NCBI GenBank assembly: GCA_964578975.1
Contig: CAZOFA010000001.1
Location: 4,111-68,110, forward strand
Source of the DNA: an uncultured Coxiellaceae bacterium
GTDB taxonomy: Bacteria > Pseudomonadota > Gammaproteobacteria > DSM-16500
Direction of reading: 5' to 3'
Length of the DNA: 64,000 nt
Every line of letters starts with the position of its first letter. Positions within the stretch are counted from its first letter, which is position 1. The position numbers and the translations under genes were made by a program. The notes beneath the pieces are model-generated. The model was not told the origin of the DNA. It saw nothing but the letters and a program-made list of their open reading frames with translations, and did no database searches. Below are positions 51,561 through 54,767 of the stretch, in pieces.

Positions 51561-52373
51561 ATGCAAGATTCAGATTTCACAAGAATCTATAGCGGTGGAA
51601 ATCTCACCGGTACAATTGCAACAAATGGTGAAAATTCCGGAACAACAAATCCAAAAAGATGCTCTATATCAATGTGCGCATCAGGATTATTTTTATTAGC
51701 ATGCGGAGTGGGTGCAGGCGTGTTTGCCGCCAATTTTGTTGGTTCTACACCACCTCCCTGTCCGATACCGTGTCCTAATTGTTTCAGTTACACAGCAAAT
51801 GATTTCCAAACAATCGCCCAAGCCGGTCAGCTTTATACCTTCCCTTTTCAGGTTCAAGATTATTGCCCCGATGGAACTTATCCTCCCGATTGGGTCAATG
51901 GCACTTTAAATGTGATGTTTGGTTCCCATCCTATTACAAACGAATTCTTAGCAGTCGGTCCTGTGATTGGCTATCCTACGCCCGAAGATGCGCGTCAACG
52001 TGCTGTAGACTATGTCAACTTAGAATATCTTCCAGACATAGGATCCCCTTTGGCCGATCCAACTAACAATGTTTGTATATCTCGCACAGGTGAATTTGCT
52101 GATGGCCCATTCGGTTGTGAAACACCTGCCGCCTATGCATACAGTCTTACTAATGACAATGATCCGATGCCTGATTTAGTCCCTGATTCTCAGGCAGTAG
52201 AATCAACATCCGCGTCTGGATCAACTTATCCAACATTCACAACTGATCTACGTAAAAATCCATTTCTTATGTTTGCTTTTAATCGATTAGCTGGAAAAGA
52301 TCCGCAGCAAGAACATAAGCCCACAGAAAAACAAAATGAGACATCAGAAAGACGGTTTAACAAAACTGCTTAA
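51561..52373 (+). CDS. Hypothetical single-pass membrane protein with a Cys/Pro-rich juxtamembrane motif (orphan)
   Basis: TM segment SMCASGLFLLACGVGAGVFAANFV followed by STPPPCPIPCPNC. No recognisable domain. Inserted between ftsX and rpoH. Confidence 0.5.
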   Translation: MQDSDFTRIYSGGNLTGTIATNGENSGTTNPKRCSISMCASGLFLLACGVGAGVFAANFVGSTPPPCPIPCPNCFSYTANDFQTIAQAGQLYTFPFQVQDYCPDGTYPPDWVNGTLNVMFGSHPITNEFLAVGPVIGYPTPEDARQRAVDYVNLEYLPDIGSPLADPTNNVCISRTGEFADGPFGCETPAAYAYSLTNDNDPMPDLVPDSQAVESTSASGSTYPTFTTDLRKNPFLMFAFNRLAGKDPQQEHKPTEKQNETSERRFNKTA

Positions 52374-52465: not shown

Positions 52466-53326
52466 ATGGATAATACTTCACTTCAAACCCTCGATCTGCA
52501 TCTGCCCATCAGCAGTCTTGAAACCTATATTAGTCATGTAAATCAAATACCTATGCTAACTCAAGCCGAAGAGCTTGCACTGGCAACTCGTCTCTATAAA
52601 ACCAATGATCTTGCCGCCGCGAAAGGATTGGTATTGGCTCATTTGCGCTATGTGGTGCGTGTGGCACGTGGTTATATGGGTTATGGGTTGCCGTTAAATG
52701 ATTTAATTCAAGAAGGCAATATTGGGTTGATGAAAGCGGTCAAGCGTTTCAATCCTGAAGTTGGTGTACGTCTGGTCACGTTTGCCATGCACTGGATCAA
52801 AGCTGAAATTCACGAATTTGTTTTACGTAACTGGCGCATTGTGAAAGTTGCGACGACAAAAGCACAACGTAAATTATTTTTTAATTTACGCAACATGAAA
52901 AAACATTTAGGTTGGTTAACGTCTGAAGAAGTCATGGAAGTTGCGAAAGATTTACGGGTTAAACCTGAAACGGTACGTGAAATGGAAATGCGGTTAAGCA
53001 CCTCCGACACGCCATTTGATGCGCACGATGATGATGACGAAGATGGATTCCATTTTGCACCCGCGGGTTATCTCGAAGATCATCGTTTTAATCCTGAAAA
53101 ACAATTAATTTCGACTGATTCGGCCAAACAATCACATTCGAGTTTACAACATGCGCTGACGCAACTCGATGAACGCAGCCAAGAAATTCTTCAGGCACGT
53201 TGGCTCGCTGAAGAAAAATCGACATTGCAAGAATTAGCAGATAAATTCCAAGTTTCGGCTGAACGTATTCGTCAACTTGAAAAAAATGCGATGCAGAAGT
53301 TGAAAGCTGTGCTTGAGCAAGCTTAA
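52466..53326 (+). CDS. rpoH: RNA polymerase sigma-32 (heat-shock sigma factor)
   Basis: RpoH box QRKLFFNLR, region 2 [28 protein letters not shown], region 4 [23 protein letters not shown]. Confidence 0.95.
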
Positions 53327-53612
53327 CACGTGTCATTCCCGCGAAGGCGGGAATCTATCTAAAATAAGCACTATGACATTTTCAGAATAGATTCCCGCAT
53401 GCGCGGGAATGACACGGCGCGCGCATACTCACGAAATCCGCCCACGTGTCATTCCCGCGAAGGCGGGAACCCATCTAAAATAAGCACTATGACATTTTCA
53501 GAATAGATTCCCGCGTGCGCGGGAATGACACGGCGCGCGCATACTCATGAAACCATGTCAGCAGAGTCTCTCTCCGCCCACGTGTCATTCCCGCGAAGGC
53601 GGGAATCTATCC
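53327..53612. repeat. Tandem composite array (about 2.3 units; periods 116 and 136 bp) built from family-A palindromes
   Basis: Units start with cacgtgtcattcccgcgaaggcggga at 53327, 53443 and 53579. Each full unit also carries the variant palindrome attcccgc(a/g)tgcgcgggaatgacac. Unit 2 has a 20-bp insertion. Confidence 0.9.
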
Positions 53613-53648
53613 TAATTTAATCACAACACTTAATTTGAAGGCGATATT

Positions 53649-53945
53649 ATGTTATCAAAAGAATTCTATGTTTATATTATTTCAAGCAGGAAAAACGGCA
53701 CTTTATACATTGGAGTCACAAACGATTTATTAAAGCGAATCTCCATTCATAAAGAAAAGCTTGCTGATGGATTTACCAAAAAATATTCCGTTCACGAATT
53801 GGTGTATTTTGAAACGCACAATGATATCAACACAGCTATCTTGCGTGAAAAACAAATTAAAAAATGGAATCGTAATTGGAAAATAAGTTTAATCGAAGAA
53901 ACAAATCCAGATTGGATCGATCTTTATTATGAATTAATTGGATAA
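53649..53945 (+). CDS. GIY-YIG nuclease superfamily protein (small, stand-alone; COG2827/YhbQ-like)
   Basis: FYVYIISSRKNGTLYIGVTNDLLKRISIHKE (GIY...YIG), ETHNDINTAILREKQIKKWNRNWKISLIE (catalytic Glu / K-W-R-K region). Confidence 0.85.
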   Translation: MLSKEFYVYIISSRKNGTLYIGVTNDLLKRISIHKEKLADGFTKKYSVHELVYFETHNDINTAILREKQIKKWNRNWKISLIEETNPDWIDLYYELIG

Positions 53946-54026
53946 ATAGATTCCCGCCTTCGAGGGAATGACACAGGCTCGCACACGTGTCATTCCCGCG
54001 AAGGCGGGAATCCATCTAAAATGACA
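53946..54026. repeat. Two further family-A palindromes, starting immediately after the GIY-YIG stop codon
   Basis: atagattcccgccttcgagggaatgacac, then cacgtgtcattcccgcgaaggcgggaatccatctaaaatgacac. The second copy has the same sequence and direction as the left-flank units. Confidence 0.9.
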
Positions 54027-54035
54027 CAGCTTCTT

Positions 54036-54767
54036 TTATTTCAAATGATCATACCCAAACACATCTGAAAAATAATTTTCTCGTTTCAATCCCGCAGTCA
54101 AAAAATCTTGTAATGCGTCATGCACAATAGACTCAGGTGCACTTGCATATATTCGATAAGGTGAAAGATCAGAATGGTTTTCTAAAATAACGTGCTGCAA
54201 TAATCCTATTTTTCCTTGCCAATGCGTATGCGGTCGACTTAACACCGGCGTGTAAGAAAAATTTTGCAATTCGTTCATCCAACCTTGAGCTAATTCGTGC
54301 AAATACAATTCTTCAGGGGCGGTCGCACTCCAGTATAAATGCATCGATGGATAGGTGTTTAATCGTGTTAATTCTTCTACGATTGATTTGACCGGCGCAA
54401 AACCTGTGCCCCGTGCGAGAAAAATAATAGGTTGATCGCGCTGCGCTGCAAACTCGGTCGAACAACCATAAGGACCGCGCAATGTTAATTTTTTTTCTGC
54501 AGAAATTTTTAATAAAATTTCGCGCGCAAAATGATTTGAATCAGGATGGGCAATATGCAATTCAATGAACGAATAATCGTGAGGACTACAGGCAATTGAT
54601 AATGGTGAAAGTTTTCCATCGGGATGAACAACTTTAACGTATTGTCCAGCATGATAACGCAAAGCATCCTGCTTTGGAGCTTGTAATAAAATGCGTGTGA
54701 TGTCTTTTCCGATTGAGTCACGCTGCACAACAAGATAAGTGATGTCTTTAAGCAACTTGCGAACCAC
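54036..54767 (-). CDS. fre: NAD(P)H-flavin reductase (Fre/FNR-like two-domain oxidoreductase)
   Basis: Colinear with E. coli Fre: HAGQYVKV (RAGQY), LSPLSIAC (RPFSMAS), IELHI, FLARGTGFAPVKSI (AGGTGFS). Confidence 0.7.
   Translation of the reverse strand: MVRKLLKDITYLVVQRDSIGKDITRILLQAPKQDALRYHAGQYVKVVHPDGKLSPLSIACSPHDYSFIELHIAHPDSNHFAREILLKISAEKKLTLRGPYGCSTEFAAQRDQPIIFLARGTGFAPVKSIVEELTRLNTYPSMHLYWSATAPEELYLHELAQGWMNELQNFSYTPVLSRPHTHWQGKIGLLQHVILENHSDLSPYRIYASAPESIVHDALQDFLTAGLKRENYFSDVFGYDHLK

What the first reader, a model, noticed from the sequence alone, without database searches (positions are those of the whole stretch)
53327..54026. GIY-YIG nuclease gene bracketed by arrays of the genome's dispersed palindrome: a REP/RAYT-like 'repeat plus nuclease' unit with a different enzyme
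The 98-aa GIY-YIG ORF (53649-53945) is flanked on the left by about 2.3 tandem composite units (periods 116 and 136 bp). Each unit contains two family-A palindromes (cacgtgtcattcccgc-gaag-gcgggaat and attcccgc-(a/g)tgc-gcgggaatgacac). On the right, starting at the base after its stop codon, are an inverted-loop copy (attcccgc-cttc-gagggaatgacac) and another cacgtgtcattcccgcgaaggcgggaat copy. The same palindrome is dispersed elsewhere in the window: inside rlmJ, at the rlmJ 3' end, and after proS. In enterobacteria and pseudomonads, REP palindromes are mobilised by RAYT (IS200/IS605-like TnpA) genes that are themselves flanked by REPs. Here the flanked gene is a GIY-YIG endonuclease, a fold used by homing endonucleases and some mobile elements. 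The layout suggests an undescribed hairpin-element propagation system, with the GIY-YIG protein as the trans-acting nuclease.
Basis: partly seen in the sequence, partly recalled or inferred. Interest (0 to 1): 0.7.

Follow-up and report, generated by a model that had tools for sequence, protein, structure and literature searches.

The report
ssnA nuclease gene with its hairpin repeats
This is a typical copy of a system first described in 2025: a tiny GIY-YIG nuclease (SsnA) that cuts single-stranded DNA next to a specific hairpin repeat, sitting among an array of those repeats.

Summary
A 98-aa GIY-YIG ORF (53649-53945) is bracketed by eight copies of the palindrome ATTCCCGC-N4-GCGGGAAT. Three more copies lie 36-41 kb away, where none is expected by chance.

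The system is not undescribed. The protein is 56% identical, without gaps, to the Neisseria gonorrhoeae orthologue of SsnA, and it keeps the three residues whose mutation abolishes cleavage (Y9/Y20/E67 = Y6/Y17/E64). The repeats fit the published Ssn-related motif (SRM/NTS), an oriented form of Neisseria dRS3 and of the "CGTC-tagged REPs".

Chenal et al. 2025 (Nat Commun 16:2388) showed three things. SsnA binds this hairpin only as ssDNA. It cuts a few nucleotides 5' of it. ssnA genes are flanked by the motif across phyla. They also drew the RAYT/REP analogy themselves.

I reproduced the association in 80 genomes from many phyla: 58/80 have an SRM within 200 bp of the gene, a roughly 50-fold enrichment, and the flanking copies face inward.

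The propagation role remains unproven. Three results are compatible with it. Paralogous cassettes share homology only from SRM to SRM. A relative has an empty rpoH-fre site. Array length varies between samples.

Verdict: already known, low interest.

The parts
53649..53945 (+). ssnA homologue: 98-aa single-domain GIY-YIG site-specific ssDNA nuclease (predicted)
   Evidence: Pfam PF01541 E=1.8e-16. It is 56% identical with no gaps over 90 aa to the N. gonorrhoeae SsnA orthologue (tblastn E=1e-27). Y9/Y20/E67 align with the experimentally required Y6/Y17/E64. AF2 model pLDDT 86.7 with a GIY-YIG fold.
53331..53358 (+). SRM/NTS hairpin repeat F1 (TGTCATTCCCGCGAAGGCGGGAATCTAT), starting 4 nt after the rpoH stop
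   Evidence: Matches the published SRM degenerate pattern. 0 hits in 50 shuffles of the window.
53387..53414 (-). SRM R1, inverted partner of F1. F1, a 28-nt spacer and R1 form a REPIN-like doublet.
   Evidence: SRM pattern hit. The doublet folds as ssDNA into a long hairpin, -35.5 kcal/mol, z=-11.
53447..53474 (+). SRM F2 (one substitution in the 3' stem arm: GGGAAC)
   Evidence: SRM pattern hit. Second composite unit of the 116/136-bp tandem array.
53503..53530 (-). SRM R2
   Evidence: SRM pattern hit.
53583..53610 (+). SRM F3, the left end of the SRM-ssnA-SRM cassette, 38 nt before the ATG
   Evidence: SRM pattern hit. ssDNA hairpin -8.9 kcal/mol, z=-4.1. Same position and orientation as in 42 of 49 upstream SRMs in other genomes.
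53946..53973 (-). Degenerate SRM R3, the right end of the cassette, starting at the base after the stop codon. One stem mismatch (CCCTC/GGCGGG).
   Evidence: Matches the palindrome with 1 mismatch but fails the SRM pattern. Weak hairpin, -3.5 kcal/mol. Minus orientation is typical of downstream SRMs (37 of 46).
53988..54015 (+). SRM F4, last repeat of the array, 20 nt before the stop of the convergent NAD-binding oxidoreductase gene (54036-54767, -)
   Evidence: SRM pattern hit.
53327..53578 (.). Two tandem composite units (116 and 136 bp), each F-SRM + spacer + R-SRM + linker. This is a NIME/BIME-like array.
   Evidence: TRF period 116, 96% identity. Units printed.
13474..13501 (-). Solo SRM overlapping the last codons and stop of rlmJ. 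Identical over 31 nt to the ssnA-proximal SRM F3 (53581-53611).
   Evidence: SRM pattern hit. Sequence.
12862..12887 (.). Symmetric dRS3-like palindrome GTCATTCCCGCGAAGGCGGGAATGAC inside rlmJ, read in frame as an extra ~14 aa. It lacks the C after the palindrome that is critical for SsnA binding in Neisseria.
   Evidence: Alignment to E. coli RlmJ (7p8q) shows a gap of 14 residues exactly here. Not an SRM pattern hit.
17094..17119 (.). Symmetric dRS3-like palindrome 8 nt after the proS stop
   Evidence: Not an SRM pattern hit.

Best explanation
The locus is an ssnA gene embedded in an array of its own recognition repeats (Ssn-related motifs, SRM/NTS). The host is an uncultured Aquicella-like gammaproteobacterium.

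How it works, by homology to the characterised Neisseria and Wolbachia enzymes:
- The 98-aa single-domain GIY-YIG protein binds the repeat only when the DNA is single-stranded and the 8-bp stem/4-nt loop hairpin has formed.
- It reads the unpaired 5' tag (T/C)GTC and the C that follows the stem. These give the repeat an orientation.
- It hydrolyses the same strand a few nucleotides 5' of the tag, using Mg2+.
- Double-stranded DNA, RNA and the complementary strand are not cut.

The repeats face inward on either side of the gene, so the predicted cuts fall just outside both ends of the cassette, on opposite strands.

What is shown here: family membership, motif identity, orientation, hairpin covariation and the cross-phylum gene-repeat linkage.

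What is inferred: activity of this particular orthologue, and its role in this host. The most likely role is cutting ssDNA that carries the repeats (incoming or replicating DNA), which modulates recombination, as shown for transformation in Neisseria. The repeats and cassette probably descend from a selfish IS-like element.
For: Membership:
- 56% identity without gaps to gonococcal SsnA (94 aa).
- Y9/Y20/E67 are invariant in 25 homologues and align with Y6/Y17/E64, whose mutation abolishes cleavage (PMC11893778).
- Single-domain GIY-YIG. The fold model is nearest to UPF0213, Slx1 and UvrC GIY-YIG domains.

Motif:
- 7 window hits to the paper's own SRM pattern, against 0 in 50 shuffles.
- All oriented copies keep the GTC tag, and 7 of 8 keep GGGAAT-C.

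Linkage reproduced independently in 80 genomes from many phyla, including Cyanobacteria, CPR, Planctomycetota, Ignavibacteriota, Rickettsiaceae and Omnitrophota:
- 58/80 have at least one SRM within 200 bp, and 24/80 have one on both sides.
- SRM density is 3.0/kb near the gene against 0.059/kb in the rest of 1.03 Mb.
- Upstream copies are + in 42 of 49 cases. Downstream copies are - in 37 of 46.

Hairpin:
- In 45 distinct 28-nt SRMs all 8 stem positions are Watson-Crick paired in every sequence.
- 4 positions show two-sided compensatory changes, which the search pattern does not enforce.
- ssDNA fold -8.9 kcal/mol, z=-4.1.

Biochemistry and genetics of the family: PMC11893778.
Against: - No biochemical data exist for this orthologue or for any member from Legionellales/Coxiellales-like bacteria.
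- The window repeats miss the strict Neisseria NTS consensus at its first and last positions (T for C, T for G; 0 strict hits).
- Cross-specificity between Ssn homologues is only partial in the paper.
- The gene-proximal right repeat has a stem mismatch and folds weakly.
- Whether this host is naturally transformable is unknown, so the Neisseria role may not transfer.
- 22 of 80 homologues have no SRM pattern hit within 200 bp. Many of these show variant hairpins by eye.
Confidence: 0.88

Rival explanations
1. SRM-ssnA-SRM would be an active, autonomous IS-like mobile element, and the SRM doublets and solo copies its non-autonomous (REPIN/MITE-like) derivatives. SsnA would be the nuclease that initiates their copying. 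It does not exclude the best explanation; it concerns the biological role.
For: - Paralogous cassettes in one genome share homology only from a few nt outside one SRM tag to a few nt outside the other. The two L072 copies are 85% identical over 398 bp, from -45 to +52 relative to the gene. L014 and L063, from one MAG, are 81% identical over 365 bp.
- A relative with 82% identical RpoH and the same synteny (ftsYEX-rpoH-fre-x-comM) has a 58-bp rpoH-fre spacer with no ssnA or SRM.
- The protein is 55-80% identical across very distant phyla, which suggests horizontal spread.
- The doublet spacer starts like the ssnA leader.
- A solo SRM 40 kb away is identical over 31 nt to the cassette end.
- Predicted cuts lie outside both cassette ends.
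- The authors of PMC11893778 raise the same hypothesis.
Against: - No transposition event, target-site duplication or excision product has been seen here or in the literature.
- GIY-YIG nucleases hydrolyse DNA and form no covalent intermediate, so a separate joining or copying step would be needed.
- ssnA is single-copy in the window and in 79 of the 80 other loci examined, like a domesticated gene.
- Several homologue pairs sit at orthologous loci with conserved flanks, that is, vertical inheritance (L011/L019, L016/L018).
- The empty-site relative is too diverged for exact boundaries.
- Array length variation can arise by slippage or recombination alone.
Confidence: 0.3
2. A free-standing GIY-YIG homing endonuclease gene that cuts the double-stranded palindrome and copies itself into it by double-strand-break repair. 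On this reading the flanking repeats are simply the halves of its target site.
For: - GIY-YIG is a classic homing-endonuclease fold (weak TIGR01453 group I intron endonuclease hit, E=0.0019).
- The gene sits between inverted copies of the repeat.
Against: - The protein has no DNA-binding domain beyond the ~98-aa catalytic core.
- Neisseria SsnA shows no binding or cleavage of dsDNA (PMC11893778).
- The flanking repeats are complete hairpins, not split half-sites.
- Stem covariation points to structure recognition in single strands.
Confidence: 0.03
3. The palindromes are ordinary transcription terminators or mRNA-stabilising hairpins, and their position next to a small GIY-YIG gene is coincidental.
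For: Copies lie just after stop codons of rpoH, proS, rlmJ and ssnA. One terminator-like hit was found at 53969-53950.
Against: - The same 28-nt motif flanks the homologous gene in dozens of phyla at about 50-fold local enrichment.
- The hairpins lack T-tracts (1 terminator-like site found against 1.1 expected).
- One copy is inside a coding region.
Confidence: 0.02

Closest known systems
Ssn nuclease family / NTS-SRM repeats (SsnA of Neisseria meningitidis; Chenal et al., Nat Commun 2025, PMC11893778)
   Same: - Same protein family: 56% identity to the gonococcal orthologue, the same residues required for cleavage in Neisseria SsnA, and a single domain of about 94-98 aa.
- Same repeat: (C/T)GTCATTCCCGCG-loop-GCGGGAATC(C/T)(A)(G/T).
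- Same SRM-gene-SRM layout with inward-facing repeats.
- Same clustering of repeats into arrays.
   Different: - Host is an uncultured Aquicella-like gammaproteobacterium rather than Neisseria.
- The tag is TGTC and the tail CTAT/CCAT instead of CGTC...CYRG.
- Only 11 repeats occur in 64 kb, and 8 of them are at the gene.
- No functional data exist for this host, and its natural competence is unknown.
CGTC-tagged REPs, family CGTC-1 (Di Nocera et al. 2013, PMC3733652), which equal Neisseria dRS3/NIME arrays and Rickettsia RPE-6/RPE-4
   Same: - 8-bp stem starting with A-T and T-A pairs, a 4-nt loop, an unpaired CGTC/TGTC head and a 3-nt tail.
- Dimers in inverted orientation.
- Occasional intragenic in-frame copies.
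- Reported in Coxiella, Rickettsia, Wolbachia and Neisseria.
   Different: [quoted passage not shown] Here, and in the 2025 paper, the associated gene is ssnA.
REP/BIME + RAYT (TnpA-REP, IS200/IS605-related HUH Y1 transposase)
   Same: - A single-copy nuclease gene flanked by the hairpin repeats it recognises.
- Recognition of a hairpin plus an unpaired tag in ssDNA.
- Inverted doublets (REPIN-like) and mosaic arrays.
   Different: - Unrelated enzyme: a hydrolytic GIY-YIG nuclease rather than HUH/Y1 with a covalent 5'-phosphotyrosine.
- The tag is GTC(A) rather than GTAG.
- The two cassette ends are recognised on opposite strands rather than the same strand.
- No strand-transfer chemistry is known.
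GIY-YIG homing endonucleases (I-TevI, I-BmoI) and UPF0213/YhbQ and Slx1 GIY-YIG proteins
   Same: Catalytic GIY-YIG core. The nearest solved folds are BH0048 (1ZG2), Slx1 and the UvrC N-terminal domain.
   Different: - No DNA-binding or partner domain.
- The substrate is ssDNA, not duplex or branched DNA.
- Only weak sequence similarity to UPF0213 (E=6e-5).
- A conserved C-terminal KKWNRxWKxxLIExxNPxWxDLY extension is specific to this clade.

Membership tests
Ssn (SsnA, cd10448) site-specific ssDNA nucleases | Single-domain GIY-YIG protein of about 94-100 aa | tested here: met
   98-aa ORF. Pfam GIY-YIG covers residues 6-78 and there is no other domain. AF2 model pLDDT 86.7 with a beta-beta-alpha-alpha-beta-alpha core plus two C-terminal helices.
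Ssn (SsnA, cd10448) site-specific ssDNA nucleases | Homology to Neisseria SsnA at E<1e-10 (the paper's operational criterion) | tested here: met
   tblastn against an N. gonorrhoeae chromosome record gives E=1e-27. The 94-aa ORF there has Y6, Y17 and E64, as described for Nm SsnA. Pairwise BLASTP gives 56% identity, 0 gaps, E=1e-38. I used the gonococcal orthologue because the meningococcal sequence itself was not available to me.
Ssn (SsnA, cd10448) site-specific ssDNA nucleases | Conserved residues whose mutation abolishes cleavage in Neisseria SsnA: the two GIY-YIG tyrosines and the metal-binding glutamate (Y6, Y17, E64) | tested here: met
   Y9, Y20 and E67 are invariant in alignment A1 and align to Y6/Y17/E64 with identical spacing of 11 and 47 residues.
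Ssn (SsnA, cd10448) site-specific ssDNA nucleases | Gene flanked by Ssn-related motifs (pattern HGTCWYN(0-2)YYVSBRHN(0-5)WNVSBRGN(0-2)RNCYNB) | tested here: met
   There are 5 pattern hits within 320 bp upstream and 1 hit 43 nt downstream. The copy abutting the stop codon fails the pattern by one stem mismatch.
Ssn (SsnA, cd10448) site-specific ssDNA nucleases | Assignment to CDD model cd10448 (GIY-YIG_unchar_3) | not testable with these tools
   No CDD library is available here. The indirect evidence is the 56% identity to a Neisseria SsnA orthologue.
Ssn (SsnA, cd10448) site-specific ssDNA nucleases | Binds and cleaves the motif only as ssDNA, on one strand, a few nt 5' of it | not testable with these tools
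   This needs EMSA and nuclease assays. It is supported only by homology and by hairpin covariation.
REP/RAYT (REPtron) | Flanked gene encodes an HUH Y1 (IS200/IS605-type, Y1_Tnp) transposase | tested here: not met
   The only Pfam matches are GIY-YIG and a weak T5orf172 hit. There is no Y1_Tnp match.
REP/RAYT (REPtron) | Hairpin repeat with an unpaired GTAG tag | tested here: not met
   The tag is (T/C)GTC, which places the repeat in the CGTC superfamily.
CGTC-1 REP family (Di Nocera 2013) | CGTC/TGTC head, 8-bp stem beginning A-T/T-A, 4-nt loop, 3-nt tail | tested here: met
   Window consensus is TGTC-ATTCCCGC-GAAG-GCGGGAAT-CTA/CCA.
GIY-YIG homing endonucleases | GIY-YIG domain tethered to a separate DNA-binding domain; duplex target | tested here: not met
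   No extra domain is present. The hit to TIGR01453 is 18 bits against a cut-off of 56.

The most novel reading that the evidence does not exclude
SRM-ssnA-SRM is a still-active autonomous mobile element of a new mechanistic class. A hydrolytic, hairpin-guided GIY-YIG ssDNA nuclease nicks just outside each end on opposite strands. Host replication or repair then copies the cassette, and in trans the SRM doublets and solos, to new sites. That would make CGTC-tagged REPs the non-autonomous partners of a non-HUH, non-DDE 'transposase'. The cassette-limited homology between paralogues, the empty site in a relative and the strong inward orientation bias are compatible with this reading but do not prove it.
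Probability: 0.3. Interest if true: 0.7.

Novelty: already known. Interest (0 to 1): 0.22.

Why it matters
That system was published in 2025, so this locus adds only another host, an Aquicella-like and probably amoeba-associated gammaproteobacterium.

The open question is how CGTC-tagged REPs / SRMs multiply, and whether SsnA drives that. My side results bear on it:
- exact cassette boundaries between paralogues;
- an empty orthologous site in a relative;
- copy-number variation of arrays between samples;
- in-frame intragenic copies.

These could guide a direct test, but they are incremental to a hypothesis the authors already stated.

Tried and rejected
- The look-up of encoding contigs and the listing of cluster members on the window protein gave no record name or organism. 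The host was instead placed near Aquicella through RpoH homologues.
- The Ssn paper has no supplementary files held as text, so the N. meningitidis SsnA sequence could not be taken from it. A gonococcal chromosome mislabelled as a plasmid in PLSDB supplied the orthologue.
- The strict Neisseria NTS consensus gives 0 hits in the window. Only the degenerate SRM pattern matches.
- The Rfam scan gave only sub-threshold FtrB hits and nothing at gathering score.
- NCBIfam has no specific model for the protein.
- The PDB holds no Ssn structure. The WD40 'hits' are a KKWNR low-complexity artefact and were rejected.
- A look-up of P0014 contexts failed because the server gave no answer and was not repeated.
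- The P0116 look-up, intended to find one protein in several contexts, returned essentially one locus with array-length variants, so it did not show transposition.
- The empty-site relative is too diverged to align the intergenic DNA. No exact insertion boundary or target duplication could be defined.
- The promoter scan found no convincing promoter in the 38-nt leader.
- Terminator, homing-endonuclease and YhbQ/UPF0213 readings were considered and rejected (see the rival explanations).
Full report
**1. Observation**

- The ORF 53649-53945 (+) encodes 98 aa and matches Pfam GIY-YIG (PF01541, residues 6-78, E=1.8e-16).
- The palindrome ATTCCCGC-N4-GCGGGAAT, allowing up to 2 mismatches, occurs ten times in the window. 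Positions are 53335, 53391, 53451, 53507 and 53587 left of the gene, 53950 and 53992 right of it, and 12865, 13478 and 17097 elsewhere. Expectation in 100 dinucleotide-preserving shuffles is 0.00.
- Tandem Repeats Finder reports a 116-bp unit, 1.9 copies, 96% identity, at 53327-53552. The second unit is 136 bp because of a 20-bp insertion. A third, partial unit is the palindrome just before the gene.
- The right-hand copy begins at the base after the TAA stop.
- The distant copies sit inside and at the 3' end of an RlmJ gene (12600-13499) and 8 nt after a prolyl-tRNA synthetase gene (15596-17086).
- tblastn finds no second GIY-YIG copy in the window.

**2. What it is**

The protein belongs to an enormous, highly conserved family.
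- A word-indexed search returned 7,999 proteins at E<=1e-5. The best 120 are 64-80% identical to the window protein and come from Omnitrophota, Desulfobacteraceae, Margulisiibacteriota, Phycisphaerae, Doudnabacteria and others.
- An alignment of 25 members has 27 invariant columns. They include Y9, Y20, R30, H34 and E67 and a C-terminal KKWNRxWK..LIE..NP.W.DLY block.
- One homologue (P0086) carries an N-terminal extension reading SFPRRRES, which is the palindrome translated. This was the first hint that the repeat travels with the gene.

I fetched 80 loci encoding homologues from one-genome-per-species contigs. They include Cyanobacteria, Saccharibacteria and Parcubacteria, Planctomycetota, Ignavibacteriota, Bacteroidota, Rickettsiaceae, Burkholderiales and Dehalococcoidia.
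- The exact motif ATTCCC-N8-GGGAAT occurs 79 times in the 31.9 kb lying within 200 bp of the gene (2.48/kb). It occurs 28 times in the remaining 1.09 Mb (0.026/kb).
- The printed flanks show a common architecture: GTCAT-stem-loop-stem-ATCCAG, then 0-40 nt, ATG ... stop, then 0-20 nt and CTGGAT-stem-loop-stem-ATGAC.

**3. It is a published system**

A literature search for dRS3 and GIY-YIG found Chenal et al., Nat Commun 2025;16:2388 (PMC11893778). That paper reports the following.
- It defines the Neisseria Transformation Sequence, NTS = CGTCATTCCCGCGMAVGCGGGAATCYRG, as an oriented subset of dRS3.
- The gene most associated with it across RefSeq is ssnA. It encodes a 94-aa single-domain GIY-YIG protein (CDD cd10448).
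- With a degenerate 'Ssn-related motif' (SRM), 71% of homologues have at least one flanking motif and 42% have one on both sides.
- 81% of genomes with more than 200 SRMs encode SsnA.
- Purified SsnA binds and cuts the NTS only as ssDNA, only on the NTS strand, a few nucleotides 5' of the motif. It does not act on dsDNA or RNA.
- Y6A, Y17A and E64A abolish cleavage.
- The C after the palindrome is critical for binding. The three nucleotides before the palindrome are critical for cleavage.
- In N. meningitidis, ssnA deletion raises transformation about 5-fold, but only for NTS-bearing DNA.
- The discussion states that NTS-ssnA-NTS has the architecture of an insertion sequence and draws the IS200/IS605-RAYT/REP/BIME parallel.

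An earlier survey (Di Nocera et al. 2013, PMC3733652) catalogued the repeat class as 'CGTC-tagged REPs'.
- Family CGTC-1 has an 8-bp stem beginning with A-T pairs, a 4-nt loop and a CCA tail, with TGTC variants of the tag.
- It equals dRS3 in Neisseria and RPE-6/RPE-4 in Rickettsia, and is present in Coxiella.
- The survey found no dedicated transposase for it.

**4. Membership tests**

PLSDB contains two 2.17-Mb N. gonorrhoeae records that are really chromosomes.
- tblastn of the window protein hits one at E=1e-27.
- The ORF there is 94 aa with Y6, Y17 and E64, and is surrounded by NTS copies.
- Pairwise BLASTP gives 56% identity and 79% positives with no gaps over 90 residues. Y9/Y20/E67 fall on Y6/Y17/E64.

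Using the paper's own SRM pattern, the window has 7 hits against 0 in 50 shuffles.
- Six hits lie in the ssnA array and the seventh is the solo copy at 13474-13501.
- Along the array the orientations alternate: + - + - + [ssnA] (-) +. The bracketed copy is the one abutting the stop codon. It fails the pattern by a single stem mismatch.

In my 80 loci the results are:
- 58 (72.5%) have at least one SRM within 200 bp, and 24 have one on both sides.
- Density is 3.0/kb near the gene against 0.059/kb far from it.
- Upstream copies are + in 42 of 49 cases. Downstream copies are - in 37 of 46.

This reproduces the published association on an independent genome sample.

Among 45 distinct 28-nt SRMs, all eight stem positions are Watson-Crick paired in every sequence.
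- Four positions show two-sided compensatory changes (T-A/C-G/A-T/G-C and others), which the search pattern does not enforce.
- This fits recognition of a hairpin.
- The window hairpin folds as ssDNA at -8.9 kcal/mol (z=-4.1). The F-spacer-R doublet folds at -35.5 kcal/mol (z=-11).

The AlphaFold2 model (pLDDT 86.7) has a GIY-YIG core.
- Its nearest solved folds are UPF0213 BH0048 (1ZG2), Slx1 and the UvrC N-terminal domain.
- There is no solved Ssn structure.
- The weak match to 1ZG2 (E=6e-5) shows the protein is not in the YhbQ/UPF0213 clade.

RAYT membership fails: the protein has no Y1 transposase domain and the repeat has no GTAG tag.

**5. Context and host**

- RpoH, encoded immediately upstream, is 73% identical to that of Aquicella siphonis. 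Its closer relatives are unnamed gammaproteobacterial MAGs. The host is therefore an uncultured Legionellales/Coxiellales-like bacterium. This fits the paper's note that SRM-rich genomes are often symbionts.
- A relative with 82% identical RpoH (L081) has the same gene order: ftsY-ftsE-ftsX-rpoH, a convergent NAD-binding oxidoreductase, a small ORF, then comM. Its rpoH-oxidoreductase spacer is only 58 bp, with no ssnA and no SRM.
- None of four relatives' 10.9-kb loci contains an SRM.
- The roughly 710-bp array plus gene is thus an insertion in the window's lineage, or a deletion in the relative.

**6. Does the cassette move?**

Evidence compatible with mobility:
- **Paralogue boundaries.** Two ssnA copies on one contig (L072) are 85% identical over 398 bp, running from 45 bp before the start to 52 bp after the stop. 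Two copies in one MAG (L014/L063) are 81% identical over 365 bp. In both cases homology starts a few nucleotides outside the GTCAT tag of the left SRM and ends a few nucleotides outside that of the right SRM. That is about where Neisseria SsnA cuts. This last point is my inference.
- **Empty site.** See section 5.
- **Shared ends.** The doublet spacer begins like the ssnA leader (CTATCTAAAATAAGCAC against CTATCCTAATTTAATCAC). The solo SRM at 13474-13501 is identical over 31 nt to the cassette's left end.
- **Array variation.** Samples carrying the identical P0116 protein differ in the number of 40-bp SRM-like units after the gene.

Evidence against mobility:
- No target duplication or junction polymorphism was found.
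- The gene is single-copy in nearly all loci.
- Several homologue pairs are at orthologous loci (L011/L019, L016/L018).
- GIY-YIG chemistry is purely hydrolytic.

I rate active mobility at about 0.3.

**7. Verdict**

It is wrong on novelty and unproven on propagation. This is a canonical ssnA/SRM locus in a new host: already known, low interest.

Noticed in passing
window 12600-13499 (rlmJ), palindrome 12862-12887: The symmetric dRS3-like palindrome lies inside the RlmJ coding region. It is read in frame as about 14 extra residues (LCHSREGGNDRDGNTN) that are absent from E. coli RlmJ, in the manner of Rickettsia palindromic elements. The last codons and stop of the same gene are supplied by the solo SRM at 13474-13501.
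   Followed up: partly
window 53313-54043 (Rfam scan): The SRMs give sub-threshold matches (25-32 bits against a gathering score of 66) to Rfam FtrB (Francisella sRNA B, RF02748). Its consensus contains an SRM-like hairpin, GUCAUUCCCGCGUAGGCGGGAAUCUC. That Rfam family may be built around an Ssn-related repeat.
   Followed up: no
L085-L092 (contigs carrying the identical ssnA product P0116): The same locus in different samples carries different numbers of a 40-bp SRM-like unit directly after ssnA: one in L085, more in L087 and L088. In L087 an IS110-family transposase sits next to the cassette.
   Followed up: partly
L003 vs L073 (Burkholderiaceae / Casimicrobiaceae MAGs): The flanks on both sides are 82-83% identical over about 850 bp. 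The ssnA cassette between them does not align at the DNA level. This suggests cassette replacement or much faster divergence than the surrounding genes.
   Followed up: no
PLSDB records NZ_CP119140.1 and NZ_CP119142.1 (L093): Two 2.17-Mb Neisseria gonorrhoeae records are labelled as plasmids but are evidently chromosomes. They carry almost no annotation, and the ssnA ORF at L093 1516-1800 is unannotated.
   Followed up: partly
window 55286-56809 (-): A ComM/Mg-chelatase-like gene (507 aa) lies 1.3 kb from ssnA. The ssnA-less relative L081 has it at the same position, so the proximity looks coincidental.
   Followed up: partly
window 51561-52373 (+): A 270-aa Cys/Pro-rich ORF lies upstream of rpoH, at the position where relatives have ftsX. 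It was not examined.
   Followed up: no
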